Source: Elusimicrobiota bacterium (lineage in GTDB: Bacteria; Elusimicrobiota; Elusimicrobia; Elusimicrobiales; UBA9959). Taken from it: a stretch of 15,894 bases of DNA. Under the pieces are notes generated by a model, which was not told the DNA's origin, did no database searches, and was given only the letters and a program-made list of their open reading frames with translations. Each line of letters opens with the position of its first letter. The stretch's first letter is position 1. A program made the position numbers and the translations under genes. Positions 765 to 13,969 of the stretch are shown in pieces. The stretch lies in assembly GCA_037137395.1 (NCBI GenBank), contig JBAXKK010000063.1, positions 1-15,894 on the forward strand, given 5' to 3'.

Positions 765-772
765 ATAAGTGC

Positions 773-927
773 GACAGTACGGCAGCAAGACAGCGCGGCA
801 GGAACTGAATATCAGGCATAAAAGGCAAAAAACCTGTATCGGGGCGTGATTTCGCGGCGGGGCGTTCGTGCCTCCAAATTTGGCCGGTGCCTGTCGTACT
901 GTCTTGCTGCCGCTCTGCCGCGCTGTT
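773..927. repeat. Inverted pair of 8-bp tandem arrays (unit RRCAGnnn) around an 83-bp spacer
   Basis: Left arm 773-804: GACAGTAC GGCAGCAA GACAGCGC GGCAGGAA. Right arm 888-927 read on the minus strand: AACAGCGC GGCAGAGC GGCAGCAA GACAGTAC GACAGGCA. Confidence 0.85.
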
Positions 928-933
928 ACTATA

Positions 934-962
934 TTGTCATTTTCGGCTAAAAATGTTAATAT
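934..962 (+). promoter_or_regulatory. Sigma70-type promoter of the rimP-nusA-infB operon
   Basis: TTGTCA (934-939), 17-bp spacer, TAATAT (957-962), with an extended -10 TG at 954-955. Confidence 0.75.
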
Positions 963-970
963 AAGTGTAT

Positions 971-1000
971 GAGGTGGCTGAAGTTCGGCCGCTTTTTTTT
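971..1000 (+). terminator. rimP-leader premature terminator/attenuator
   Basis: Hairpin AGGTGGCTGA-AGT-TCGGCCGCTT containing G-U pairs, followed by T8 (993-1000), between the promoter and the rimP start. This is the position of the known rimP leader motif. Confidence 0.75.
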
Positions 1001-1027
1001 ATAAAGATTTGCCCTTATTGAGGTATT

Positions 1028-1492
1028 ATGGAACGAGAACTCATTGAGAAGGAAACTGAACCGTTGTTGACTGAGCAGGGTTTTGAACTTGTTGACCTTA
1101 AAGTTACTAAAATGGGCGGCAAGTTGCTGCTGCAGTTCTTCATCGACCGAGTAGGCGGCGGAGTTACGCTGGAGGATTGCGGGCTTATGAGCGAGAAGCT
1201 TGGCTCCTACATCGAGATGAATAATGTTTTAGACGGCGGCTACATTCTGGAAATCTCCTCCCCGGGGGTGGACCGGGTACTGAGAAAAGAGAAGGATTTT
1301 CTTAAATTCAAGGGCAGCAAGGTTAAGATAAAACTCAAAAAACCGCTCAACAACGCGCGCGTCTACTATGGCGAGTTGCTGGGTTTTGAGAGCGGGGCGG
1401 TCTTTTTGAGCGGGGATCTTAAATTAAATCTCAACGATATCGAAGAGGCACGGTTAAATCCGGGCGATGACGATATCCTGAAAAAACACTGA
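1028..1492 (+). CDS. rimP: Ribosome maturation factor RimP
   Basis: GFELVD, FID..GGVTLEDC and YILEISSPGVDRVL motifs; GAGG SD; directly upstream of nusA. Confidence 0.96.
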   Translation: MERELIEKETEPLLTEQGFELVDLKVTKMGGKLLLQFFIDRVGGGVTLEDCGLMSEKLGSYIEMNNVLDGGYILEISSPGVDRVLRKEKDFLKFKGSKVKIKLKKPLNNARVYYGELLGFESGAVFLSGDLKLNLNDIEEARLNPGDDDILKKH

Positions 1493-1528
1493 CGGAACTG
1501 ATAATCCAAGAATAGGCGGTAAAAACAT

Positions 1529-2899
1529 ATGACTAAAGAAAATACTTTTAAAGGCAAAACCGAACTCATCATGGCTCTGGAACAGCTGGAGCGTGAGAAG
1601 AACATAAAAAGGGACGACGTCTTTAAAACGATCACCGATTCGCTGGTTTCGGCCCTGCGCAAATATTTCGGCAAGACTTCACAGATCGCGGCCACTATTG
1701 ACCCCGACACCGGCGAGATGTGCGGCTACCTGGTGAAGAAAGTGGTTCCTGAAGTTTTCACCCCGGAGATAGAGATTACGCTGGAAGAGGCCGTAAAGCA
1801 TGAGCCCTCGGCCAAGCTGGACGAAGAAGTCAATATTCCCGTGGATATACAGGATTTCTCCCGGATCGCGGCTCAGACGGCCAAACAGGTCCTGATCCAG
1901 AAGATTCGCGAGATCGAGAAAGTTAAACTTTTTGACGAATATAAGCCGCGCGAAGGTGAGATCGTGACGGGCCTCGTGCACCATGTGGCCGGCCGGGATA
2001 TTTTCGTGGATCTTGGCAAGACCGAAGCGATCCTTCCTTATTCCGAACAGATAAGGCGCGAGCATTACACCATCAACCAGCGCGTACGCGCCATCATACA
2101 CCGCGTGGATAAGGAAAACAAAGGTCTTCAGATCGTTCTTTCCCGCGCCTCCATCCCGTTCCTTAAAAGCCTTTTTGAGGCCGAAGTTCCGGAAATAGCC
2201 GAGAAAGTGGTGGAAATAACGGATGTTGTCCGCGATCCCGGCTTTCGGTCCAAGGTTGTAGTGAAAAGTAATTCCTCCAAGGTGGACCCCGTGGGCGCCT
2301 GCGTCGGCATCCGCGGCTCGCGCATCCGCGTCATTATGGGCGAGCTCTCCAACGAGAAGATTGATCTGATCCCTTATACCGAGGAGCCGCTGCACATGCT
2401 GGCCAAGTCGTTCTCCCCCGCCGCGGTGCTATCGGTCCGCGTCATTGATAAGGCTTCCAAGAGGGCTCTCATTATTGTCCCGGACGACCAGCTGGCCATT
2501 GCGATAGGCCGTGAAGGGCAAAATATAAAACTGGTTTCCCGCCTTACCGGCTGGGAGCTGGAAGTAAAATCGGAAGGACAGAAAGTGGAGGAAGCCAAAA
2601 AAAATAACGACATAGCCGTTAACGACCTGCTTAAGGTCGACGGCATCGGAGCTAAAGTGGCCGATACCCTGGTTAAGCTGGGCATGGCCGATATCCGTAA
2701 AATCGCGGGTTTTACGGTTGAGGACTTGTGCGCGCTTGAGGGCATAGGCGAGAAGACCGCCCAGAAGATCGTGGACGGCGCTAAAAAGTTCCTGGAAGAT
2801 AACCCGACTTACGGCAAGACGGCCCTCGCGGGAGCCCCTAAAGATTTGGAAACCAAAGAGGTAAAAGAAAATGAGTCTAAAGAAACCGAAAGCAAATGA
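1529..2899 (+). CDS. nusA: Transcription termination/antitermination factor NusA
   Basis: FSRIAAQTAKQV, S1 domain, KH motifs DPVGACVGIRGSRI and AIGREGQNIKL, and C-terminal HhH-like repeats (GIGAKVA, GIGEKTA). Confidence 0.98.
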   Translation: MTKENTFKGKTELIMALEQLEREKNIKRDDVFKTITDSLVSALRKYFGKTSQIAATIDPDTGEMCGYLVKKVVPEVFTPEIEITLEEAVKHEPSAKLDEEVNIPVDIQDFSRIAAQTAKQVLIQKIREIEKVKLFDEYKPREGEIVTGLVHHVAGRDIFVDLGKTEAILPYSEQIRREHYTINQRVRAIIHRVDKENKGLQIVLSRASIPFLKSLFEAEVPEIAEKVVEITDVVRDPGFRSKVVVKSNSSKVDPVGACVGIRGSRIRVIMGELSNEKIDLIPYTEEPLHMLAKSFSPAAVLSVRVIDKASKRALIIVPDDQLAIAIGREGQNIKLVSRLTGWELEVKSEGQKVEEAKKNNDIAVNDLLKVDGIGAKVADTLVKLGMADIRKIAGFTVEDLCALEGIGEKTAQKIVDGAKKFLEDNPTYGKTALAGAPKDLETKEVKENESKETESK

Positions 2900-5363
2900 C
2901 GATTTAAACTCCGACGCTTCTCCGCAGGACGATAATAAGGTCCGGCTGGACGCCGCTAAGACTAAGAAAAAAAGCGCGGTCAAGCCGGTTGTTTCCGAAA
3001 GCGCGGAAAAGAAGCCCGTGAAAAAAGACGCGCCTAAAATTTTAAAAAAAACTAAAGTCGGGCAATCTTCAGAGGAAGGCGAGCAGGCTTTGGCGAAGGT
3101 GAAAAAGCCGCAGGCCGCGAAGCCAAAAAAAACAAAAGCGGAAGAGCCCGCGGTCCCGGCGCCCAAGGAAGAAGTGAGGCCGCCGCAGCCGCCCAAGCGC
3201 CTTATCATTTCCGTGTCCAGGCCCGAGGGGTATATCCCCCCCGGCCAACCGGTCAAGCCCGAAGTTCCGGCTCCGGTTCTTCCTGTCGAGCCAGTCGCCG
3301 CGAAACCTGTAGCGCCCCCCGTTACTAAGCCCGTGGCGCCACCTCCCGCGGCCCCGGCCCAGCCGGTAAAGCCCGCGGCTCCGGCAAAATCCGATATCCC
3401 CCCGTCAGGTTCGGTCTACAGGCCCGGCGCGCCGTCCCAGCCGCACAGGCCGTTCGCGGGCCACGCGCCCAAATCCGCAGCGCCGGCTCACCACGCTGCG
3501 CAGGCGAAACCCGCCGCGCCGCAGCAGGCTCCGGCCCAGGCTGTAAAACAGCCGGCTATCTCCGCGCCGGTCCCTGAGGCCGCGCCCGCTGAGCCCAAAG
3601 AACTTCAGAAAATAAAGATCTCCACCCAGGTCGTGGTCCGCGAACTGGCGGAAAAGATGAACCTGAAGCCTACCGACTTCATAAAGAAACTCATGAGTAT
3701 GGGCGTGTTCGCCACCATCAACCAGCGCCTTGACCCGGATGTGGCTACGCTTATCGCCGTGGATTACGGTTTCGATCTGGAAATAGTTCCGATTTACGAC
3801 GAGGAGGTTGTGGAAGAGGTTGAAACGGAAAAACCGGAAAACCTTAAGCCCCGTTACCCCATAGTTACAATCATGGGGCATGTCGATCACGGTAAAACCA
3901 CTCTCCTTGACGCGTTCCGTGAGTCCAATGTCGTTGATACCGAGGCCGGGCAAATAACCCAGCATATCGGCGCGTACATGGTGACTACCCCAAGGGGCAA
4001 GATCACGGTTCTGGACACGCCCGGGCATGAGGCTTTCACCGCCATGCGCGCCCACGGCGTAAAAGTTACGGATATCGTCATCCTCGTGGTCTCAGCCGTA
4101 GACGGCGTCATGCCTCAGACGCTAGAAGCCGTCAATCACGCCAAGGCTGCCAGTGTGCCGATAATCGTGGCCATTAATAAAATGGACCTTCCGACAGCAA
4201 ATTCGCAGGACATCAAACAGCGGCTGGCTAATATCGGGCTTAACCCGGAAGATTGGGGCGGCACTACGGCCATGGTCGAAGTGTCGGCCAAGAAGCGCAC
4301 GAATCTGGATAAGCTTCTTGAAATAGTCAGCATCCAGGCCGAAATGATGGAGCTTAAAGCTAATCCTGATACTATGGGCACCGGAGTCGTTGTCGAATCC
4401 CGGCTGGACTCCCAGAAGGGTATCGTCGCCACTGTCATAGCCGAGAACGGAATAATAAAAGTGGGAGATCCATTCGTTGTCGGTACCTCCCACGGCAAGG
4501 TGCGCGCTCTGGTGAACGACCGGGGTGAGCGCCTTGAGAAGATAGGTCCCAGCGAACCCGCCGAGCTCCTCGGCATCAGCGGAGAACTCCCGCACGCCGG
4601 CGACATCTTTAAGATCTATGAGACAGAAAAAGAGGCCCGCCGGGTGGCTGAGAAGAGAAAGCTTCACCGGCGCGAAGAATCCCTCATCCATCAAAAACAT
4701 GTAAGTCTGTTGTCACTTAAGTCTCAGGTGGACCAGAAACTTCTGAAGAACCTGAATGTCGTGCTTAAGACAGACGTGTTTGGCTCCCTCCAGGCCATAA
4801 AGGACTCGCTTGAGAAGCTGAGCAATCAGGAAGTTGCGATCCGTATTCTCCACTCGGGCGTTGGCAATGTTACCGAGTCTGACGTGTTGCTGGCGAAAGC
4901 CTCCGATGCGGTCATCTTCGGCTTCCACGTGGATGCCGACGGCAAGGTCAAGGAAGAAGCCAAATCCGCTGGCGTAGAAATCCGGACGTATCAGATCATA
5001 TACGACCTTATAGAGGACGTGAAAGCAGGCATGAGCGGCCTTCTGGAACCCGAGATAATCGAGACTGTTACCGGGCGCGCGGAGATACAGCAAATCTTCG
5101 ATCTGAGTTCCGGTAAAGTCGCCGGCTCGCTTGTCAAGGAAGGTAAGTTGCTCCGCAATCAGCCTATAAGGGTGATGCGGGGTAAGGATATTGCCGGCAA
5201 CGGCAAGATCTCCGGCCTTAAGAGATTCAAAGAGGACGTGAAAGAAGTGGAAAAGGGCCTTGAGTGCGGTATCCTGATAGAAGGCTTCAAGGACTACAGG
5301 GCCGGCGACATTGTAGAGGCTATCACCAAAGAAGAAAGGATACGAAGAATAACCCATGTTTAA
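2871..5363 (+). CDS. infB: Translation initiation factor IF-2
   Basis: [32 protein letters not shown] and [16 protein letters not shown]; Lys- and Pro/Ala-rich N-terminus; overlaps the nusA end by 29 nt. Confidence 0.98.
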
Positions 5364-5721
5364 ACGAACCGACCGCCTCAAGGAACTCTTTTTCCGCGAG
5401 GTCAATCTGGCGCTGCAGGATGTACACGGACTCAACAGCCGTGGCATCGTAACGCTCACCGGAGTTGAGTTGGTTGACGAAGGCAAGATGCTGCATGTTT
5501 ATTTTTCCGTGTTCGGCGGAGAATCCGACAAGATATGGACCGAAGCCTTGTTGACACGGTCCATTCACCAAATCAGGGCCGAACTTAAAAAACGCCTCAG
5601 GCTCAGGGTTATTCCGGCCATCATGTTCAAGTATGACCTTACTCCTGAAGAGGCCGCTAAGATTGAGAAGATCTTTGATAAGATCAGGGCCGAAAAGAAA
5701 GATGAAAACACCGGATCTTGA
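5356..5721 (+). CDS. rbfA: 30S ribosome-binding factor RbfA
   Basis: R..R N-terminus, VTLTGVEL and LRLRVIPAIMFKYD; canonical position after infB. Confidence 0.93.
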   Translation: MFKRTDRLKELFFREVNLALQDVHGLNSRGIVTLTGVELVDEGKMLHVYFSVFGGESDKIWTEALLTRSIHQIRAELKKRLRLRVIPAIMFKYDLTPEEAAKIEKIFDKIRAEKKDENTGS

Positions 5722-6682
5722 GCGGGAATTTAAAAAGCTTGAAGAGATAATAGTGACCGGCGATAGTTTTTTTCTGGCCGGGCATCTGAATCCCGACGGG
5801 GATACTCTCGGCAGCATGCTGGCCATTTCTTCGGTCCTTAAGCGGCTGGGTAAAAAGGTATATCTTTTCTCCAGCGACCCCGTGCCGGAAAATCTCAGCT
5901 TTCTTCCCCACGCAAAGAGCATAAAGGTCGGGCGCCCGCCCGCGAAAAAACGCTTTGACGCGGTCATACTTCTGGAATGCTCCACCCCCACGCGCGGCGG
6001 AGATCTGTCCGCCGTGCTGAAAAACGCCGGGAAAGTGATAAACATCGACCACCATAAGACTTCGGAGTTTTACGGGGACGTTAATATCGTTGAATCACAC
6101 TCATCTTCCACGGCCGAAATAGTTTATCGGCTTTTTTACAGCATGAGGGTTCATATCACCAAAACTGAGGCTGCCTGCCTTTATGTCGGTATCGTGACCG
6201 ATACCGGGCGCTTCCATTTTCCGGCCACCAGCCCGCGCACTCTTGAAGTGGCTTCGCGCCTGCTTGAAACCGGCTTTAAATTCTCAAGGATAAACGATCT
6301 GCTTTACGCCACTAAATCGTGTCAAGCCCTCAAGGTTCTGGGGCGGGCTCTGGGCAGCCTGGAGCTGCTTTTGGGAGGCCGGGTGGCAGTGATTACGCTG
6401 AAGGCCTCCGATTTTACCGATTTTGACGCGGCTCCGGAGCATACGGAAAATGTAATTAATTACGGCATGATGGCGCCGGGTGTTAAGATCGCCGTACTTT
6501 TTCGCGAAGAGGCGGATCGCACGGGCGTCACGTTCCGTTCCAGGGGCCACGCGGATGTCAGTCTCCTGGCTAAAACTTTCGGCGGCGGCGGGCATAGGAA
6601 CGCTTCCGGCTGCAAGATAAAAGCCGGCTTGAATGAAACCAGAAAAAAAGTTCTGGCCGGAATAAAAAAAATTTTAGATTAA
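5702..6682 (+). CDS. nrnA: DHH/DHHA1 phosphoesterase (NrnA-like nanoRNase/pAp phosphatase)
   Basis: GHLNPDGDTLGS, NIDHH, GIVTDTGRF and GGGGHRNASG. Start placed at ATG 5702 instead of 5633 to avoid a long overlap with rbfA. Confidence 0.88.
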   Translation: MKTPDLEREFKKLEEIIVTGDSFFLAGHLNPDGDTLGSMLAISSVLKRLGKKVYLFSSDPVPENLSFLPHAKSIKVGRPPAKKRFDAVILLECSTPTRGGDLSAVLKNAGKVINIDHHKTSEFYGDVNIVESHSSSTAEIVYRLFYSMRVHITKTEAACLYVGIVTDTGRFHFPATSPRTLEVASRLLETGFKFSRINDLLYATKSCQALKVLGRALGSLELLLGGRVAVITLKASDFTDFDAAPEHTENVINYGMMAPGVKIAVLFREEADRTGVTFRSRGHADVSLLAKTFGGGGHRNASGCKIKAGLNETRKKVLAGIKKILD

Positions 6683-6705
6683 GGAACCTTAAAAGTTTTT
6701 AATCA

Positions 6706-7422
6706 ATGAATGTAGTTTCCCCCCATTTTTCAGGCATTCTGCTTTTTGATAAACCTAAAGGCATCACCTCCCACGATGCGGTGGATCTGCTGCGCCGCCG
6801 TTTTAATTTTAAGAAAATTGGGCACACAGGCACGTTGGACCCTATGGCCACGGGGTTGCTGGTTATGCTACTCGGCCCGGCAACCAAGTATCAGGCCAAG
6901 CTTCAGAATTGCGCCAAGGTTTACAGCGGCGCCGTCACGTTGGGAATTGAGACTGATACCTGGGACGCGGAAGGTAAGGTCCAGAAAGAGACTCAGGTCT
7001 CCGGGATAACTCAGGAAAAAATTAAAAGTGTCATAGGCTTTTTTACCGGTAAGGTAATCCAGCAGGTCCCGTCGTTTTCGGCTGTGCGCTATAAGGGCAA
7101 ACACTTGTATAAGTTGGCCAGAAAGAACTCGGCGGTGCCTACCATACGCCGCGAGGTCAACATAACATGGAATAGTTACTCCTTCAAGCCCCCTGTGCTA
7201 AAGTTCGAAGTTGAATGTTCCGGCGGCACTTATGTGAGGTCTATCGCCTACGAAATAGGGCGCATGCTCGGCACCGGAGGCCACCTTAGCGAACTGCGCC
7301 GCCTGAGCGTTAACCGCTGGAAAGCTGACGAGGCCTTGGACAGGGAAGCGTTGCAAAAGCTGCCTATTGAGGTGCTCAAGGCCAGGCTGCTGGATGTTCC
7401 GCCGGATCTTAAAAACCTTTAG
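6706..7422 (+). CDS. truB: tRNA pseudouridine(55) synthase TruB (short form lacking the C-terminal PUA domain)
   Basis: DKPKGITSHD, KIGHTGTLDPMATGLL and CSGGTYVRS motifs. Confidence 0.96.
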   Translation: MNVVSPHFSGILLFDKPKGITSHDAVDLLRRRFNFKKIGHTGTLDPMATGLLVMLLGPATKYQAKLQNCAKVYSGAVTLGIETDTWDAEGKVQKETQVSGITQEKIKSVIGFFTGKVIQQVPSFSAVRYKGKHLYKLARKNSAVPTIRREVNITWNSYSFKPPVLKFEVECSGGTYVRSIAYEIGRMLGTGGHLSELRRLSVNRWKADEALDREALQKLPIEVLKARLLDVPPDLKNL

Positions 7423-7425
7423 GAA

Positions 7426-7491
7426 AGTGGCGAGTAATTAGTGGCTGGAAGTATACGGTGACTGGCCATTACGTCCTAACCACTAACCACT
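7426..7491. repeat. Short inverted pair of 7-bp tandem arrays (unit ~AGTGGYY)
   Basis: Left arm 7426-7446: AGTGGCG AGTAATT AGTGGCT. Right arm 7464-7491: GGCCATT ACGTCCT AACCACT AACCACT (reverse complement AGTGGTT AGTGGTT AGGACGT AATGGCC). Confidence 0.65.
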
Positions 7492-7499
7492 TCTCTATT

Positions 7500-8390
7500 A
7501 TGTCTGTATTTCTTACCATAGGCACTTATGACGGCGTACACCTCGGCCATCAAAAAATCATAAGGACCCTTATCCGCGAGAGTCTTAAACGGGGCATTGA
7601 CAGTGCCCTGGCCTATTTCCCATTTCCCCCAAAATTCTTTTTTTCCGGTGAGGCCGCGAATTGCCTTATCACGCTGCCGGAGGAGCGCGAAGAACGCATC
7701 CGTAACCTTCGCGTGGCGAACATCACCGAGGTTACCTTTGACGCTGTTATGGCTGAAATGCGGGCTGAAAAGTTTTTTGACGATATTATCCTGAAAGCTC
7801 ACGACGCCTCCGGTCTATGCGTCGGGCAGGACTTCGCGCTGGGGCATAATCGCAGAGGGAACACGGAATTTCTTAAGAAACACTGCGACGGAGCCGGGAT
7901 CCGTTTTAAGGCGATGTCCTTCGTCACTTTAGGCGGCCATAAGATATCTTCTTCATTGATACGCACTTTTCTCCGGAACGGCCGTGTTGAGACGGCCAAT
8001 AAATGTCTCGGCTGGAATTATACCGTATCGGGTAAGGTAATTAAGGGCGCGGGCATAGGCCGCCGTCTGGGATTCCCGACCGCCAATATTGACGCGCACC
8101 CTGCTAAGATACTTCCGCCGGGCATTTTCGCGGCTAAGGTAAGGCTGGATAAGGGAGTGTTTTACGGGGTGGTGAACGTGGGTCTCCGCCCTACCGTCAA
8201 CACTTTGGGTGGCCGGCTTCTTTTAGAGGTGCATATACTTGATTTCGACCGGGATATCTATGGCCGCACTCTTGAGGTTGAATTTTTGCGGCATTTGCGA
8301 CCGGAAAAAAAGTTCAATTCCAGGGAATCTCTGCAGCGGCAGATTCTTCAGGATATAAAGATTGCCAGGGGAATGTTTCGTAAAGCGTAA
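7500..8390 (+). CDS. ribF: Bifunctional riboflavin kinase / FMN adenylyltransferase
   Basis: GTYDGVHLGH, VGQDFALG, KISSSLIR, GRRLGFPTAN, NVGLRPT and EVHILDF. Start placed at ATG 7500 because the 7458 extension runs through the repeat. Confidence 0.96.
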   Translation: MSVFLTIGTYDGVHLGHQKIIRTLIRESLKRGIDSALAYFPFPPKFFFSGEAANCLITLPEEREERIRNLRVANITEVTFDAVMAEMRAEKFFDDIILKAHDASGLCVGQDFALGHNRRGNTEFLKKHCDGAGIRFKAMSFVTLGGHKISSSLIRTFLRNGRVETANKCLGWNYTVSGKVIKGAGIGRRLGFPTANIDAHPAKILPPGIFAAKVRLDKGVFYGVVNVGLRPTVNTLGGRLLLEVHILDFDRDIYGRTLEVEFLRHLRPEKKFNSRESLQRQILQDIKIARGMFRKA

Positions 8391-8541
8391 ATCGGGAAGC
8401 GTAAAGAGTAAAGTGTAAACTGCAAGCGATTGCTATTCTGCCTATAGCCTAAAGCCGATGGCTTATGGCGTGCGGAAAGCGTAATCAGGGAAGTAATTTA
8501 TTGCGGTGTTTTCGCTGGCTATTCCCGCTTTACGATTCCGG
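8379..8541. repeat. Compound inverted 7-bp tandem array element (CGTAAAG/CGGGAAG family), copy A
   Basis: 8379-8420: CGTAAAG CGTAAAT CGGGAAG CGTAAAG AGTAAAG TGTAAAC. 8441-8468: CCTATAG CCTAAAG CCGATGG CTTATGG. 8473-8493: CGGAAAG CGTAATC AGGGAAG. Then a 27-bp spacer and inverted units ATTCCCG CTTTACG ATTCCGG (8521-8541). 8472-8537 matches the reverse complement of 13851-13915. Confidence 0.9.
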
Positions 8542-8543
8542 CC

Positions 8544-9947
8544 TCACGGCATCGCCGATTTCTTCCTTCTTAAAAACTGGCCTGCTGGCCTGTCGGGTCT
8601 GGATAGTTTTCCTTCTTCGGCTATCATTTCCCCTCTTAAAATTGTGTACTTGGCCCAGCCATAGAGCTTCACGCCCTGATATGGGGAATAGTCGGTCTTG
8701 TGCTGAAGCTTTCTGAAATCTACAGCCGCGGATGCGGCCGGATCTATAATGGCCAGATCCGCGTCCGAGCCCGGTTTTATGGCTCCTTTGCGCGGGTAAA
8801 GTCCCATGACTTTCGCCGGATTTGACGATAAGACGCGCGCGAGGCCGGAGAGCTTTATGCGGCCCTGTTTTACTCCGAATGTGTAGATTAGCGGCAGCAG
8901 GGTCTGAGTTCCCGGCAGGCCCATGCAAAGCCGGGCGATGTCCCCGGCCCACTCGTCTTTCTGCTTGCTGGTGAAGGTGCAGTTATCGGTCGCTATTACC
9001 CCGACCGCGCCTTTGTTCAACGCGGCCCATAGAGCTTTTGAGTCGGCCGGCGTTCTTACCGGAGGGCAGGTGGCGTAGAGATGCCCGTCGCCGCGCCGTA
9101 AGACAGAGTCCTTTAGTACAAGATACTGTGGGGCTGTTTCCCCCATTGCGTGCACTCCTATGGCGCGGGCCCTGGCTATAAGCCCGGCCGAAACGCCGCT
9201 GGAGAGATGCACGAAATATATATTGCCGCCTGTGCGGCCCGCGAGCACGAGGGCGCGGCCCACGGCTTCCCATTCTGTGAAGTCCGGCCGCGAAAGCCGG
9301 TGAGCGTCCGCCCCTGGATGCTTTTCGCGCCGCCGGCGCTCCGTCAGCAGGTCTATTATGTCTCCGGATTCGGCGTGGACGCAGACAAGCGCCCCGCTGC
9401 GCCTGGACGCCTCCAAAGCTTCAAAGAGTTCTGCGTCAGACGCCATCAGCCCCCGGGATTCGTACGCCATGAAAAATTTAAAGCTGCTCACGCCCAGGGC
9501 CATAAGGTCTTTAATCTGGCCGGCCGGGTCCGAAAGCTTTTTCCACGACGGAATTATCGCGTGAAAACCGTAATCCACGTGCATGAGGCCTTCGGCCTCT
9601 TCTATCCTTTCCTTCAACCCAGCGCGAAGCGGGACGCCCGGGCCCTGACCTGTATAATCTATCACAGAGGTGACGCCGCCGCAGGCCGCGGCCGCGGAGC
9701 CGGAGTAGAAGTCGTCGGCTGTCATTTTTCCGCCCCCGAGGTGCAGGCTGTAATGGACGTGGGCGTCTATGAGCCCGGGCAGAACTACGAGACCGCGGGC
9801 GTCGATCACGCGGACGGCGTCGCAGGTGCCCTTCGCCGGCCTGCCTACGCGCCTTATCTTGCCTCCGGAAATAAAAATATCAGCCCTGGCCGGGCCATTT
9901 TCCAGTACGGCCAACCCGCCTTTAATTACAAGGTCATATCGCGTCAT
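8544..9947 (-). CDS. hydA: Dihydropyrimidinase / D-hydantoinase (cyclic amidohydrolase family)
   Basis: PGLIDAHVH, AACGGVTSVID, SSFKFFMAY (carbamylated Lys), VHAE, FVHLS, GETAPQYL, ATD, KGAIKPGSDAD and DYSPYQG. Exact substrate not established. Confidence 0.85.
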   Translation of the reverse strand: MTRYDLVIKGGLAVLENGPARADIFISGGKIRRVGRPAKGTCDAVRVIDARGLVVLPGLIDAHVHYSLHLGGGKMTADDFYSGSAAAACGGVTSVIDYTGQGPGVPLRAGLKERIEEAEGLMHVDYGFHAIIPSWKKLSDPAGQIKDLMALGVSSFKFFMAYESRGLMASDAELFEALEASRRSGALVCVHAESGDIIDLLTERRRREKHPGADAHRLSRPDFTEWEAVGRALVLAGRTGGNIYFVHLSSGVSAGLIARARAIGVHAMGETAPQYLVLKDSVLRRGDGHLYATCPPVRTPADSKALWAALNKGAVGVIATDNCTFTSKQKDEWAGDIARLCMGLPGTQTLLPLIYTFGVKQGRIKLSGLARVLSSNPAKVMGLYPRKGAIKPGSDADLAIIDPAASAAVDFRKLQHKTDYSPYQGVKLYGWAKYTILRGEMIAEEGKLSRPDRPAGQFLRRKKSAMP

Positions 9948-10174
9948 TTTAAATGAAGGTCGTGGTGCTTCGGTTCGGGTCTGTGGCGGTGGCCGAATAT
10001 GATGTTATAGGTCAGCCAGGTGGCGGAGAGCAGCGTTAACCCGCACATAAGGAGCCAGGCCCAGATAATCTGCGGGCTATGTTCGGTTGTCAGTACGCTG
10101 TACGCCAACAAACCGATAAGCCCGGCGGATGCCGCCCAGAATACGACGAAAATGGACCGGATAATTATCACCAT
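9944..10174 (-). CDS. Small hypothetical membrane protein (76 aa, two TM helices, His-rich C-tail)
   Basis: MVIIIRSIFVVFWAASAGLIGLLAYSVL...IIWAWLLMCGLTLLSATWLTYNIIFGHRHRPEPKHHDLHLK. ATGA overlap with the hydA start. Start placed at 10174 because the longer ORF from 10237 spans a consensus promoter. Confidence 0.7.
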   Translation of the reverse strand: MVIIIRSIFVVFWAASAGLIGLLAYSVLTTEHSPQIIWAWLLMCGLTLLSATWLTYNIIFGHRHRPEPKHHDLHLK

Positions 10175-10181
10175 AGGTTTA

Positions 10182-10210
10182 ATTTTAACGATTTGCCGCC
10201 AGCCTGTCAA
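10182..10210 (-). promoter_or_regulatory. Sigma70-type promoter, probably producing a leaderless mRNA
   Basis: TTGACA (10210-10205), 17 bp, TAAAAT (10187-10182). The ATG begins 7 nt downstream of the -10 box with no SD. Confidence 0.75.
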
Positions 10211-10261
10211 TAATCGGTTTTTTAACCCCGGCTGCATCCCTAAGACGGCAAAGTCGGATGC

Positions 10262-10864
10262 CTATTTCCCCGGCTTGAAATTGGCAAGCACTTTGTCAAA
10301 AAACTTCAGATTTGCTTCGGCGATATCCAGTGGGGCGTGATACTCTAACACGTAAAAACCGCCTTCTTTTCCGGGCAGAACCACTTTTTTTACTAACACC
10401 GCCACTTTTTTTGGCTTTACAGCGTAGGGAGGGATGAAGTCAAATTTTTGGATTTCAAACATCTTGCCTTTCCGGCCGCCGACAGTCACGTCTCGGACCG
10501 GGCCGTATTTCCTGCCTCTGATCGGCATGGAACTGTCGGGGATAGAGTTCAGCAGGATATATTTATCCATTGTTTTAAATTGCCGGTGGTCTGCGGCGTA
10601 ATAGGTCAGTGATATACGCGAGTAGGCCCCGTCCTTATTCCTTGGGCCTTTGAGGTCCACGCCGTACTCCCGGTACTGCCTGCCGGCTGTTATGGATTCG
10701 CTCTTGGGCCAGGTGCCGGGTATCTTCGCGGTGAAGAAATTACCGTCACAGACGAAATCCCGAAAATCGACCGCCGCGGGCTCCTTCTCGGCGCTGGAAT
10801 TCTGCAGCCAGGCGAAGCAGGCCGCGCATATTACAAGTGAAGCCGCGATTACATTTTTTTTCAT
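10262..10864 (-). CDS. Secreted hypothetical protein, probable PsbP/Mog1/DcrB-like fold
   Basis: Signal peptide MKKNVIAASLVICAACFAWLQNSSA. The pattern FTAKIPGTW...VTVGGRKG...FYVLEYHAP...FDKVLANFK resembles PsbP-like proteins. AAGGA SD. Confidence 0.65.
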   Translation of the reverse strand: MKKNVIAASLVICAACFAWLQNSSAEKEPAAVDFRDFVCDGNFFTAKIPGTWPKSESITAGRQYREYGVDLKGPRNKDGAYSRISLTYYAADHRQFKTMDKYILLNSIPDSSMPIRGRKYGPVRDVTVGGRKGKMFEIQKFDFIPPYAVKPKKVAVLVKKVVLPGKEGGFYVLEYHAPLDIAEANLKFFDKVLANFKPGK

Positions 10865-10879
10865 ATTTTATCCTTATAT

Positions 10880-12709
10880 TCAGGGCAATGCTTTAACCGG
10901 TTTTACCCTTAAGGTTGTGGCCGCGCCGCTAGTCGGTTTTAATTTATCCAGGCTGTCCTGAAAATAGCGCGCCTCTTCTTCTGATTTCTTGATGGTAAGC
11001 TTGTACCAGGGGTACAGAGAGTTTAATTCCTGAGTGAGTGCCATCGTGCTCGCGTAATACTTTTTCGCTCGCGAGGGGTCTATCTCCGCCGCTATCTCGC
11101 GAAGGGCCAGCTCTTTTTTTAGGGATTCATAACTGGCGAAGTTCTGGGCGGCTTTCCCCTCCTGCGAGGGCACCGCGTAATACATTATGGATCGCCCCAC
11201 GCCCTTCGCGCCTTCATTTTTTAGCAGGTCGGCCCTTTCGAGGTCAGAATCCAAGATCTGGTCGTAATAATTATTGTTGCCTTTTGCTTTTTCTGCGATA
11301 TTCTTTTGCAGCACATGCAGCGCGCCTTTAGAAAAAGCTTCTCCTTCCTGTCCGATATAATAATAGTCCGGTACCTTGTTCGCTCTGGCCCAGGCCGCCT
11401 GCTGCTGGTGTCCGCCGCCCTCATGGATAAATGTGGGTTCTATTATGGTGGTTACTTTTTTAATCGCGGCTTGATTATTCTTGTCCATAAGCTGGTCAGC
11501 CGTTACCGAGGCTTTTTGCATCGCCTCCTCTATATAGGTTTTGTTTAGCTTTATAGATCCATCTCCTGTATTGTATACGCCGCAGATATTTGGGTTATTA
11601 AGATTTGAGACGCTGAATTTAAGGGCGTTCCCAGGTTTGGCGTAAAAAGCTATCGTTTCGCGGCCGATGTCCGTGTCTGACAGCGAGCCCGGCACTTTAT
11701 CCGTTCCAAGGAGAACTTTCTGCATCCGGGGGCCTAGTTTTGCGGCCTGCTTGTCGGTTAGCGTATATACGGGGCCTGAGCCGCCGGCAGCGGCGGCGCG
11801 AGGCTTCGCGCCCGCTGCGTCGGGTACCTCCCCGGTGGCCGGGGCGGCGTTAGCAAAGGTCTTGTTGAAAAACGCCCGCTTGTCATCGTCCGATTGCGAA
11901 GAGAGATTGTCGAGGCTCTGTTGCATACTGTTGTATTTAGCAGCGGTCGCGGTATTTTGTGGCGAGTTCGGTTCACTGCTGGCTTTTTTTATGTCCTCTT
12001 TAACTCTGTCGATCGCATCTTGTATCTTTTGGCGCTGGCTGTCGTCGATGTATGGCCATATCGCTTCTATGGCCGGCAAATGTTTCACAAGGTCGACCCG
12101 GACGGCGCCCGGCGGAAATATCTTGTCAAAGTTCGCTTTGGCCCAATTTTTAAGGAAGGTCTGGCGGTCGGTGATAGTCCTGTCGGCCCATTGCTCGGGC
12201 GTCTCCGCGTCCTTTGAAATCGCGGCTGTCGTTTTGCCGCCCAGCGTGTCCCAGGACAGTGAAGCTGTTTTTGTAAGTTCCGTTTTATCGGAGGCGTATT
12301 TGGACACCCAGGGCAGAAGCTTGTCCGGTTGTGGGCCCATATCGAGGTCGGGGCCGCAGAGCGCGCAGGGCCGACTCTCCAGTCGCACAATCAACCCGGT
12401 GCGGATAATATATTCGTTATCTGCGTCGGTGAAAAAATCGCCCAGATCTTTTATCGCGTTCTCATTTGTCAGAATATATCTGGCCCGGGGTTCGTCTGCG
12501 GCCTGCAGCTTGTCCAGAAGTTTGAATTCATTCTTGTCGCCGTTAAGGCCGGTCAGGCAGGTGTCGGCCTCGGCGGGAGAAAATATCTTCTCGGAGATGT
12601 TGGTTTCGCACGCCGTTATCACGGCTTGCTCCTGCTCCGTAAATTCTTGCGCGCCGCCAGGTATGGCCTGGCCCAGCCCTAAAAACAGCAGTATAAATAT
12701 CTTTTTCAC
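10880..12709 (-). CDS. Secreted hypothetical protein with a C-terminal zincin-like metallopeptidase signature (HEGGGH)
   Basis: GTG start with GGGGAG SD; signal peptide MKKIFILLFLGLGQAIPGGA; Ala/Pro/Gly linker; CGVYN..DGSIKLN, FIHEGGGH and QEGEAF. The ORF is well supported; the function is inferred. Confidence 0.7.
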   Translation of the reverse strand: MKKIFILLFLGLGQAIPGGAQEFTEQEQAVITACETNISEKIFSPAEADTCLTGLNGDKNEFKLLDKLQAADEPRARYILTNENAIKDLGDFFTDADNEYIIRTGLIVRLESRPCALCGPDLDMGPQPDKLLPWVSKYASDKTELTKTASLSWDTLGGKTTAAISKDAETPEQWADRTITDRQTFLKNWAKANFDKIFPPGAVRVDLVKHLPAIEAIWPYIDDSQRQKIQDAIDRVKEDIKKASSEPNSPQNTATAAKYNSMQQSLDNLSSQSDDDKRAFFNKTFANAAPATGEVPDAAGAKPRAAAAGGSGPVYTLTDKQAAKLGPRMQKVLLGTDKVPGSLSDTDIGRETIAFYAKPGNALKFSVSNLNNPNICGVYNTGDGSIKLNKTYIEEAMQKASVTADQLMDKNNQAAIKKVTTIIEPTFIHEGGGHQQQAAWARANKVPDYYYIGQEGEAFSKGALHVLQKNIAEKAKGNNNYYDQILDSDLERADLLKNEGAKGVGRSIMYYAVPSQEGKAAQNFASYESLKKELALREIAAEIDPSRAKKYYASTMALTQELNSLYPWYKLTIKKSEEEARYFQDSLDKLKPTSGAATTLRVKPVKALP

Positions 12710-12754
12710 GTCTTCTCCCCTGATGCGCGGCTAATGAGTTGTCAGCTTCTTAAC

Positions 12755-12783
12755 AATATAGAGGATAAATCATGTTCTGTCAA
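12755..12783 (-). promoter_or_regulatory. Sigma70-type promoter for the 609-aa/200-aa gene pair
   Basis: TTGACA (12783-12778), 17 bp, TATATT (12760-12755). Confidence 0.75.
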
Positions 12784-12814
12784 GGTTCGTTCGGCCCCTG
12801 TTTGCCCGGTGAGA

Positions 12815-13792
12815 CTAGCGGATAAACATTCTGTGCAGCGTCTTCAGAAGCGGCTCACCATGCCTGAAAGCCGTTACGAGCGCTATCTTTTCAGGAGAGA
12901 CTGATATCCTGATTATTTGACGGCCGTCCGCCGCGCCGGCCTCGCCGAGGGCTTTGCGGATTCCGGGAGCGTCCAGCTTTGAGCCGATAATGTGTATCTC
13001 GGCCGAGTCCCCGTTTTTGCGGATGGCAAAGCAGGTTACTGCCGGCTTCTGGCGGGCGAGTTTAAAATTTCCCACAAGGGTTCCCGTTGCGCTCTCAAAA
13101 GACGAGCGGAGATGCAGCGGTATGGAGTGCTTCTTCGCGTAGGCTATGGCGCGCAACTGCCGCACTTCGGTGCCCGAGCGTGCCAGCTCCATCACCGCAT
13201 CATAGGAGATGCGCGATACTTTTTTTGCCTGCGGCACGATGGTGGGATTGGCCGTGTAGATGCCCTTAACATCGGTGTAAAGCTCGCACATCTCAGCTTT
13301 GAGCGCGTGGGTCAGAACGACAGCCGTAAAATCGGAGCCCCCGCGGCCAAGGGTGGTCGTGTCTCCCTCTTTTGTGAAGCCCTGGAAGCCCGCCACTACC
13401 GCTACCCGGCCTTTTTCTAATTCCCGCAATACGCGGGCCGGACGGACCGAAACTATTTCCGCGTCCGTATGCCGGGCATCTGTTTGTATTCCGGCTTGCG
13501 CGCCGGTAAGCGAGACGGCCTTTACGCCTGCGCGCGCTAAAGCCATGGCCATGAGAGCGGCGCTGATCTGTTCTCCGGCTGCCAGCAGCGCGTCGAGCTC
13601 CCGCGGGTTCGGCTTTGTTGTGAGAAGTTTTGAAAGGGCCAGCAGGTCGTCTGTGATATCAGCCGGGGCGGAGACCGTCATGACCACGGCAAAGCCCCGG
13701 CGGCGCGCGGAAGCTGCCCGTTCGGCCATGATCTTTATCTTTTCAGGCTCGGCCAGAGAGCTGCCGCCGAATTTCATCACTACTATTTTCAT
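12815..13792 (-). CDS. lysC: Aspartate kinase with a shortened regulatory C-terminus (325 aa)
   Basis: MKIVVMKFGGSS, DALLAAGEQIS, VVAGFQG, TTLGRGGSDFTA and YTDVKGIYTANP. Start placed at ATG 13792 because the 13876 extension runs through the repeat. Confidence 0.9.
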   Translation of the reverse strand: MKIVVMKFGGSSLAEPEKIKIMAERAASARRRGFAVVMTVSAPADITDDLLALSKLLTTKPNPRELDALLAAGEQISAALMAMALARAGVKAVSLTGAQAGIQTDARHTDAEIVSVRPARVLRELEKGRVAVVAGFQGFTKEGDTTTLGRGGSDFTAVVLTHALKAEMCELYTDVKGIYTANPTIVPQAKKVSRISYDAVMELARSGTEVRQLRAIAYAKKHSIPLHLRSSFESATGTLVGNFKLARQKPAVTCFAIRKNGDSAEIHIIGSKLDAPGIRKALGEAGAADGRQIIRISVSPEKIALVTAFRHGEPLLKTLHRMFIR

Positions 13793-13804
13793 CAGGAGAT
13801 ATCC

Positions 13805-13963
13805 CGTAAAACTAAAAGCGCAAAGCGTAAGTTGTAAGTCGTAAAACGCAAATCGTAAAACGGGAATAGCCAGCAAAATAAAGAAATAAATTACTTCCCT
13901 AATTACGCTTCCCGCTTTGCGCTTCCCGATTTACTACTTCCGCTTTACGCTTTGCGTTTTACG
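13805..13963. repeat. Inverted 7-bp tandem array element (CGTAAAG/CGGGAAG family), copy B
   Basis: Nine in-register units at 13805-13867 (CGTAAAA CTAAAAG CGCAAAG CGTAAGT TGTAAGT CGTAAAA CGCAAAT CGTAAAA CGGGAAT), a 26-bp spacer, and ten inverted units at 13894-13963 (minus strand: CGTAAAA CGCAAAG CGTAAAG CGGAAGT AGTAAAT CGGGAAG CGCAAAG CGGGAAG CGTAATT AGGGAAG). Confidence 0.92.
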
Positions 13964-13969
13964 ATCCCT

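What the first reader, a model, noticed from the sequence alone, without database searches (positions are those of the whole stretch)
773..13963. Four intergenic elements share one architecture (inverted arms of degenerate 7/8-bp tandem units) but use different unit sequences
Seen directly: 773-927 (8-mer RRCAGnnn), 7426-7491 (7-mer AGTGGYY), and 8379-8541 and 13805-13963 (7-mer CGYAAAG/CGGGAAG). Each has a purine-rich arm first, a short spacer, then the complementary pyrimidine-rich arm. Each begins within about 10 bp of, or overlaps, a stop codon. One interrupts the conserved truB-ribF junction. No transposase, integrase or cas gene is in the window. Established background: heptameric STRR repeats occur in heterocystous cyanobacteria, and REP/BIME elements occur in Proteobacteria. 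From memory and unverified, similar arms often flank small four-helix-bundle (23S rRNA IVP-like), GxxExxY or DUF559 genes. Inference: these are 'empty', non-autonomous members of a repeat-flanked mobile or exchangeable cassette system in which the architecture is conserved and the unit sequence is not.
Basis: partly seen in the sequence, partly recalled or inferred. Interest (0 to 1): 0.8.

Follow-up and report, generated by a model that had tools for sequence, protein, structure and literature searches.

The report
Repeat-armed DNA patches rewritten in place
The four hairpin-like repeats are real and belong to about 535 gene-less patches in this genome whose repeat arms differ at the same spot between close relatives, even inside protein genes, so they are likely rewritten by an unidentified repeat-writing repair process that is probably tied to a small four-helix-bundle gene carried between the same arms.

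Summary
Observation confirmed. The genome holds about 535 such elements in about 15 unit families (910 arms versus 8 in a control). In 289 of 334 multi-arm elements the purine-strand arm comes first and the pyrimidine arm last; 4 show the reverse.

One assembled copy is filled, with a PF05635 four-helix-bundle gene. The same arms flank 52 of 76 homologues from many phyla. This scan found that link, and in-frame copies, before on other DNA.

Added here is how the elements behave. Against a relative about 92% identical, 18 of 58 shared occupied junctions changed unit family wholly or partly. Elements replace local DNA with no target duplication seen, also in frame: one Mfd loop carries different units in six genomes. 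The two arms of one element are no more complementary than swapped arms. Unit order is near-random, and most arms have no resident donor. Slippage, fold-back copying and fixed-end MITE transposition therefore fit poorly.

Best reading: arms are rebuilt unit by unit during replacement-type repair and kept where harmless. The enzyme is unidentified; no Pfam RVT_1 reverse transcriptase was found in two arm-rich relatives. I found no such account in ten literature searches.

The parts
768..801 (+). Element 1, left (purine-strand) arm, 8-mer family G[AG]CAG[CT][AG][AC]; starts 4 nt after the allG-like stop
   Evidence: I3; 46 bits
802..890 (.). Element 1 spacer, 89 nt, unique in the genome; orthologous but diverged in G001; element absent in G004 and G008
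891..926 (-). Element 1, right arm, same 8-mer family
   Evidence: 47 bits
7422..7444 (+). Element 2, left arm, AGTGNNN family, at the truB stop
   Evidence: 24 bits
7445..7475 (.). Element 2 spacer; differs from the spacer at the same junction in G001
7476..7495 (-). Element 2, right arm, ending 4 nt before the ribF ATG; the junction is 1-7 nt or overlapping in 8 relatives and holds other unit families in G002, G019 and G007
8378..8419 (+). Element 3, left arm, CGTAAAG family; supplies the ribF stop codon (8388-8390)
   Evidence: 56 bits
8420..8471 (-). Element 3: recurrent junction word plus a GCCATAG-family arm (A/D compound, 39 of 41 similar copies aligned); absent at this site in G001
8472..8548 (.). 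Element 3, inner CGTAAAG-family arm pair with a 34-nt spacer; reaches the stop of the convergent amidohydrolase gene
13805..13869 (+). Element 4, left arm, CGTAAAG family, 12 nt from the lysC start on the other strand
   Evidence: 60 bits
13870..13893 (.). Element 4 spacer, a reversed copy of the element-3 core; G001 has a different spacer here
   Evidence: (I2, I9)
13894..13965 (-). Element 4, right arm, 4 nt from the stop of the type II/IV secretion ATPase
   Evidence: 75 bits
6706..7422 (+). truB (flanking gene)
7500..8390 (+). ribF (flanking gene)

Best explanation
The four elements are gene-less members of a genome-wide population of repeat-armed patches that differ in unit family at the same site between relatives and are likely rewritten by replacement-type DNA repair that probably builds each arm unit by unit, with the four-helix-bundle cassette as the gene-carrying form and presumed trans-acting partner. 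SHOWN: architecture, polarity, copy number, one filled copy, unit switching at orthologous sites, replacement of local sequence in the Mfd loop, near-random unit order, and two arms no better matched than swapped arms. INFERRED: an event deletes a short local stretch and lays down about four degenerate 7/8-nt units on one or both sides of a short spacer. The most likely route is 3'-end synthesis that jumps among the family's existing arms, or their transcripts, through the shared 3-4-nt core. Events probably strike widely and survive only where the lost DNA is dispensable: an older element, a gene junction or a surface loop. That would make occupied sites look like hotspots. The stop-rich arm faces outward on both strands, so an element landing on a gene end would supply a stop in most frames. 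UNTESTED: the enzyme, and any role of the four-helix-bundle protein.
For: Population and polarity: 535 elements, 1.7% of the genome; first arm purine-strand and last arm pyrimidine-strand in 289 of 334 multi-arm elements, the reverse in 4. Rewriting: of 350 junctions orthologous in G001 (flank identity 92%), 40 same family, 11 switched, 7 partly switched, 31 scored in one genome only, 261 none. By eye, most one-genome cases keep a decayed remnant and only about 2-3 are clean gain or loss. Flanks at switched sites are not more diverged (92.9% versus 91.6%). In-frame switches keep the frame: DegT-family gene +15 nt, 4'-phosphopantetheinyl transferase -3 nt, C1:140408 gene +3 nt. The Mfd loop at residues 843-875 holds different unit families in G000, G002, G008, G016, G010 and G007, and a non-repeat loop of similar length in G001, G003 and G004. 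Assembly: within-element arm similarity is no higher than between-element in 7 of 8 families and 0.831 versus 0.823 in the eighth; duplex energy is no better than swapped arms in 8 of 8; adjacent identical units are at or below the random expectation in 5 of 9 families; distance to the nearest other arm matches simulated unit strings in most of 12 families. Cassette link: filled copy between kamD and kamE, absent in G004 and G006; arms on both sides of 52 of 76 homologues, 46 of them purine-first, versus 1 of 146 control windows; 9 of 14 junctions filled in relatives carry arms in G000 (baseline 22%; up to three mappings may be to paralogues); the two probed unit patterns match in 14 of 18 PF05635-positive genomes and 1 of 23 negative ones (kin are not independent). 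Stops: 2.26 of 3 frames closed on the outward-facing strand, 1.27 on the other, 1.64 in shuffles (749 arms).
Against: No writer enzyme was found: RVT_1 is missing from the arm-rich G002 and G010, Ku and archaeo-eukaryotic primase from 5 of 5 genomes searched, and PolX from G000 and G002. Some plain copying does occur: the element-3 core reappears reversed in element 4, 39 A/D compounds share a junction word, and 15-16% of A and D arms share four or more units with another element, above the Markov expectation of 5-11%. Adjacent identical units exceed expectation in the D, E, J8 and K8 families, so slippage contributes. The direction of change is unknown for most switches, and only 755 kb of one close relative was compared. 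Arm boundaries come from my own PWMs, trained on G000, so families absent from G000 are under-called. The PF05635 tree clusters only weakly by unit (14 changes versus 18.0 shuffled, with one near-identical pair included). No RNA data were available.
Confidence: 0.55

Rival explanations
1. Insert-and-decay: a four-helix-bundle cassette with its own unit family inserts at gene junctions, the gene is then deleted, and the empty arms are scars; a switch is a second cassette arriving at the same junction.
For: Filled and empty forms share polarity and inner boundary words. Filled junctions in relatives are often empty in G000 (9 of 14). A 5'-truncated four-helix-bundle fragment lies at C8:18533-18676. 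Abundant families often match a resident cassette: A in G000, D in G001 and probably in a G000 assembly gap, G in G004 and G008, B in G010.
Against: None of 101 spacers of >=25 nt scores as a remnant (top 2.8 bits, shuffles up to 2.0; the positive control was weak, 18 of 58, and not held out). 28 elements lie inside 21 called genes, including a Pol III delta-prime subunit and a Mur ligase, where a stop-rich cassette intermediate should be harmful. Single arms replace half a loop while the rest stays ancestral (G002 Mfd). About 15 families face one or two cassettes.
Confidence: 0.2
2. Selected RNA signals: the arms form stems that RNase III or the four-helix-bundle protein uses to process or stabilise operon mRNAs, as with ORF-bearing rRNA intervening sequences.
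For: Three of the four window elements fold with z of -4.6 to -10.5 on at least one strand. 22% of co-directional gaps are occupied versus 12.5% of divergent ones, at a median 4 nt from the stop. Coxiella IVS is cut by RNase III in a stem (PMC4990558, passages).
Against: Pairing is not optimised (8 of 8 families). Presence and unit are not conserved at a junction. Element 3 folds weakly (z -0.9 to -2.0). None of the four is a terminator-like site. No frame-breaking copy was found (0 of 85 and 0 of 74 junctions), so intragenic copies appear to be translated, and cleavage there would destroy the message.
Confidence: 0.1
3. Imported alleles: the patches arise elsewhere and enter as short DNA fragments from the community by transformation and microhomology-assisted replacement.
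For: The same unit families occur in distant phyla. Families are patchy within the genus (AGTG pattern: 139, 55 and 59 matches in G000-G002, 0 in G003-G006). Spacers are AT-rich (40% GC versus 52%). Most arms have no resident donor.
Against: Flanks at switched sites are not more diverged. The one spacer searched had only chance-level hits in 400 genomes of the phylum. It moves the origin question elsewhere without answering it.
Confidence: 0.12
4. Local replication slippage followed by hairpin-templated copying.
For: Some arms expand by unit gain; long pure runs exist.
Against: The same ~15 families recur at hundreds of unlinked loci; adjacent units are mostly not identical; the second arm is not a copy of the first; polarity is 289 to 4.
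Confidence: 0.03

Closest known systems
Heptanucleotide long simple-sequence repeats: cyanobacterial STRR (recalled; listing only), Xanthomonas GGGAATC and Nostoc GGGGA(C/T)T (PMC4692102, passages), Beggiatoaceae TAACTGA (PMC4679880, abstract, passages and section 15)
   Same: 7-nt units, about four per run, mostly between co-directional genes near stops or starts. Xanthomonas has 70-75 convergent inverted pairs. TAACTGA runs give stops in all three frames and occur in some ORFs.
   Different: Those papers treat one unit per genome and propose G-quadruplex or regulatory roles. The passages I read name no cargo gene and no unit switching. Here about 15 families, including 8-mers, coexist and replace one another.
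ORF-bearing 23S rRNA intervening sequences (Coxiella S23p, Leptospira; PMC4990558, passages); PF05635/TIGR02436; PDB 2GSC and 2RLD
   Same: Four-helix-bundle ORF between complementary arms; sporadic distribution.
   Different: Here the cassette and its empty forms sit in mRNA operons and inside ORFs, the arms are tandem-unit arrays with imperfect pairing, and empty forms outnumber filled ones by hundreds to one.
Rickettsia palindromic elements and other MITEs (PMC10969869, passages)
   Same: Short palindromic elements read in frame inside unrelated housekeeping genes.
   Different: No conserved internal sequence or peptide, no fixed terminal repeat, no target duplication seen, and replacement rather than net insertion.
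REP/REPIN/BIME with RAYT Y1 transposases (recalled)
   Same: Hundreds of gene-less intergenic palindromes beside one or two gene-carrying copies.
   Different: The partner gene is not a Y1 transposase; the four Y1 genes of G000 are not flanked by these arms.
DRT10 and telomerase-type repeat addition (PMC12632851, abstract); DGR Avd (NF033474)
   Same: Tandem-unit synthesis is a precedent for unit-by-unit writing; the cargo protein is a distant Avd relative (E 8e-8, below the family cut-off).
   Different: No RT tracks with the arms, units are degenerate, and variation does not follow the DGR adenine rule.

Membership tests
Bacterial heptamer long SSRs (STRR-like) | Short runs of 7-nt tandem units enriched between genes | tested here: met
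PF05635 repeat-armed cassette | Same arms, same polarity, around a four-helix-bundle gene | tested here: met
PF05635 repeat-armed cassette | Empty copies derive by deletion of the gene (remnants in spacers) | tested here: inconclusive
   No remnant in 101 spacers, but the positive control was weak; one separate 3' fragment exists
MITE / RPE | Conserved terminal inverted repeats and internal sequence across copies | tested here: not met
   22 of 141 spacers had any other hit, nearly all short or chance-level; arms differ in unit order
MITE / RPE | Target-site duplication | tested here: not met
   None seen by eye at truB-ribF, kamD-kamE, the Mfd loops and the clean presence/absence sites; not a systematic count
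MITE / RPE | In-frame insertion into unrelated genes | tested here: met
   28 elements in 21 called genes; checked against orthologues for Mfd and three switched genes
REP/REPIN-RAYT | Y1 transposase flanked by the same repeats | tested here: not met
   3 of 4 Y1 genes have no arm within 900 nt; the fourth has two weak hits of 22 bits more than 500 nt away
rRNA intervening sequence | Located in 23S or 16S rRNA | tested here: inconclusive
   The four elements are not in rRNA; the 23S gene is not assembled in G000
rRNA intervening sequence | Excised by RNase III | not testable with these tools
   No RNA holder was listed
Self-splicing or excised intron | Frame-breaking copies tolerated in intact genes | tested here: not met
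   0 of 85 and 0 of 74 element junctions split one orthologous gene
DGR-type mutagenic retrohoming | Variation confined to template adenines; RT present | tested here: not met
   Invariant A on both strands in the B, C, D and E families; no RVT_1 in G002 or G010
Intrinsic terminator | GC stem followed by a U run | tested here: not met
   None of 28 sites falls in the four elements

The most novel reading that the evidence does not exclude
Many bacteria carry a dedicated repeat-writing system: an Avd-like four-helix-bundle ring, with a polymerase not yet identified, caps broken or captured DNA ends with about four degenerate 7/8-nt units, telomerase-fashion, and seals them into the chromosome. 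This would be the source of the unexplained bacterial heptamer repeats, of ORF-bearing rRNA intervening sequences, and of new protein loops and signal peptides.
Probability: 0.25. Interest if true: 0.92.

Novelty: new variant of a known kind. Interest (0 to 1): 0.68.

Why it matters
Heptamer repeat runs have been reported in several bacterial groups without an accepted origin (PMC4692102 and PMC4679880 both leave it open). This genome and its relatives turn the question into a measurable process. About three in ten shared elements changed unit family over roughly 8% sequence divergence, the arms look assembled unit by unit, and the process rewrites loops and leader peptides of housekeeping proteins while keeping the frame. 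It names a candidate protein partner (PF05635, with solved structures but no function) and excludes several ordinary routes. If a dedicated writer exists, it would be a new kind of DNA synthesis or repair and a source of new protein sequence.

Tried and rejected
Cargo other than the four-helix bundle: GxxExxY/PDDEXK_3 gave one sub-threshold hit; the DUF559 gene and 3 of 4 Y1 genes have no arms nearby. Of 17 wide arm pairs enclosing sequence, only one encloses a small cargo gene between same-family arms. Spacers as cargo remnants: not detected, weak control. Spacer origin: one 62-nt Mfd spacer searched in 400 genomes gave chance-level hits only. Writer candidates RVT_1, Ku, DNA_primase_S and PolX do not track with the arms; divergent members could be missed. 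Intron-like excision: no split genes. Imported divergent tracts: flank identity unchanged. Contamination (7.7% in G000): 12 families share contig C1 and 26 contigs carry five or more, so the mixture is not a binning artefact. Sequencing runs: no RNA holder listed. Four runs laid on the window as contigs showed joints only with short sides across the repeats, which I do not count as excision. The 23S gene is unassembled. The per-genome array density from fetched loci rests on 3-26 kb per genome and was used only as a rough guide. Literature: ten searches gave no paper linking tandem 7/8-nt arms to PF05635 or describing unit switching. The library lacks most subscription papers, and I read no supplements; the Xanthomonas comparison tables (PMC4692102 S5) could bear on switching.


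Full report
Observation. The window is contig C63 of genome G000; earlier scan notes call it an uncultured Elusimicrobiota bacterium (not checked by me). It carries allG-like, rimP, nusA, infB, rbfA, DHH, truB and ribF on one strand, and an amidohydrolase, lysC, a type II/IV secretion ATPase and greA on the other. All four elements are present as described. Element 3 is compound, with an extra GCCATAG-family arm at 8440-8471, and its inner half reappears reversed as the core of element 4.

Genome-wide population. TRF shows a strong excess of periods 7, 14, 21 and 8, 16, 24 over a Markov control. I trained position-weight matrices for 15 unit families on these arrays: 910 arms reach 25 bits against 8 in the control. 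They merge into 535 elements of median length 83 nt, 1.7% of the genome. Among 334 multi-arm elements, 289 begin with the purine-strand arm and end with its complement, 4 show the reverse, and 41 begin and end in the same orientation. Elements occupy 395 of 1774 co-directional gaps, 38 of 197 convergent and 24 of 192 divergent, at a median 4 nt from the upstream stop (my own gene calls). In 114 of 398 co-directional cases the arm itself supplies the stop. Of 312 arm pairs, 235 are of one family and 77 mixed, 42 of these being an A/D compound. Spacers average 40% GC and are nearly all unique.

The filled form. G000 has one assembled PF05635/TIGR02436 gene, 115 aa, between CGTAAAG-family arms at the kamD-kamE junction (the kam names are my reading of the sequences). 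G001 shares it; G004 and G006 have a plain 18-21-nt junction. A second, GCCATAG-armed cassette of G001 probably lies in a G000 assembly gap: contig C35 ends inside the arm, and a contig from the run that may be the source of G000 covers the gene with 14 differences in 411 nt. Among relatives, 18 of 41 genomes have PF05635, and most of the 29 copies examined have arms, with the unit changing from copy to copy. Across phyla, 52 of 76 homologues with enough flank have arrays on both sides, 46 purine-first, against 1 of 146 control windows (4 of 80 loci dropped for short flanks). Nine of 14 junctions filled in a relative carry arms in G000 (up to three mappings may be to paralogues). Two probed unit patterns match in 14 of 18 PF05635-positive genomes and 1 of 23 negative ones; 14 of the negatives are one family, so this is not a statistical test. 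Earlier scan notes report the same link in about 90 findings; I had stated it as my reading before seeing them.

Behaviour at orthologous sites. The truB-ribF junction is 1-7 nt or overlapping in 8 of 15 relatives, holds AGTG-type units in G001 and G016, and holds other units in G002, G019 and G007. With 755 kb of G001 (about 92% identical; roughly 30% of that genome), 350 junctions could be compared: 261 empty in both, 40 same family, 11 switched, 7 partly switched, 31 scored in one genome only. By eye most of the 31 keep decayed remnants, and about 2-3 are clean gains or losses. So occupied sites are rewritten often while new sites are rarely colonised. Flank identity at switched sites is 92.9%, against 91.6% at unchanged ones.

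Inside genes. Mfd, identified from its sequence and search matches, has two. One loop carries different families in six genomes and a non-repeat loop of similar length in G001, G003 and G004; in G002 a single arm replaces half the loop. Three intragenic elements are switched between G000 and G001 with length changes of +15, -3 and +3 nt. No element splits a gene that is whole in the other genome (0 of 85, 0 of 74). Earlier notes report in-frame copies in other genomes; a search of the notes for in-place switching returned none.

How arms are built. Arms have a median of about four units, each a fixed 3-5-nt core plus variable positions drawn from a family vocabulary. The two arms of one element are no more alike or complementary than arms taken from different elements. 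Adjacent units are identical at about the random rate in most families, with an excess in D, E, J8 and K8. Four-unit strings are about as far from their nearest other arm as simulated strings are. A and D, the families with cassettes in G000 or G001, show modest sharing of longer strings (15-16% of arms) and a recurrent junction word. Inner ends carry family-specific words more clearly than outer ends in A, B, D and F, but not in C, E or J8. The outward-facing strand closes 2.26 of 3 reading frames, the other 1.27, and shuffles 1.64.

Mechanism. I conclude that arms are laid down by replacement-type repair that assembles units one or two at a time, most plausibly by template jumping among existing arms through their shared cores, and that survival in dispensable DNA explains the apparent hotspots (confidence 0.55). 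This is inference: no enzyme was found, and RVT_1, Ku, primase-polymerase and PolX do not track with the arms. Insert-and-decay of cassettes (0.2), imported alleles (0.12), selected RNA signals (0.1) and slippage (0.03) are the rivals; the first may well operate alongside for intergenic sites. That the solved homologue has five chains per entry while arms have four to five units is a coincidence worth testing, not evidence.

Comparison and novelty. The repeats are of the known but unexplained heptamer class (PMC4692102, PMC4679880; passages and one section read), the filled form resembles ORF-bearing rRNA intervening sequences (PMC4990558, passages), and the in-frame copies recall Rickettsia palindromic elements (PMC10969869, passages). 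The elements fail the membership tests for MITE, REPIN, intron and DGR. Ten searches found no paper joining these pieces or describing unit switching. I score it a new variant of a known kind, interest 0.68, with a 0.25 chance that a dedicated repeat-writing system lies behind it.

Noticed in passing
window 971-995: A hairpin plus T run upstream of rimP is conserved in G001, G004, G006, G008, G010 and G020 while the surrounding spacer is not; no Rfam match. Possible leader or attenuator RNA.
   Followed up: partly
window 10262-12709 (minus strand): Two ORFs of 200 and 609 aa with no Pfam match, apparently with signal peptides, are missing between the same neighbours in G001-G004, G009 and G017 but present in G016 (42% and 28% identity).
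   Followed up: partly
L135:1399-1821 and L136:1500-1845: In G006 and G002 a four-helix-bundle domain is fused in frame, through a pyrimidine arm that reads as a hydrophobic signal-like segment, to a secreted-looking protein of about 1200 aa; similar long open frames occur in G008, G019 and G021.
   Followed up: partly
G000, e.g. C3:34508, C33:19409, C55:2891, C4:42670: Arms within the first 60 codons of genes are read on the pyrimidine strand in 15 of 18 cases and give hydrophobic leader-like peptides, so they may supply signal peptides; start calls are mine.
   Followed up: partly
G000:C8:18533-18676: The 3' half of a four-helix-bundle gene directly after the stop of an 886-aa gene (alaS by my reading), followed by an 8-mer arm pair.
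   Followed up: partly
G000:C52:11795-14803 (L002, L199): A diversity-generating retroelement (RT, Avd, adjacent target-like gene) with no arms nearby; already noted by the scan.
   Followed up: partly
G000:C4:35837-35876, C102:6634-6665, C17:9422-10434: Other repeat families, unrelated to the 7/8-nt arms; those on C4 and C17 lie near Y1-transposase genes.
   Followed up: no
G000 contigs C17, C32, C49, C75: The A/D compound elements cluster on a few contigs (20 of 39 on these four) and form tandem chains of whole elements.
   Followed up: no
G008:C3:30286-30535: A run of more than 30 AAGGCT[AG] units, far longer than the usual four.
   Followed up: no
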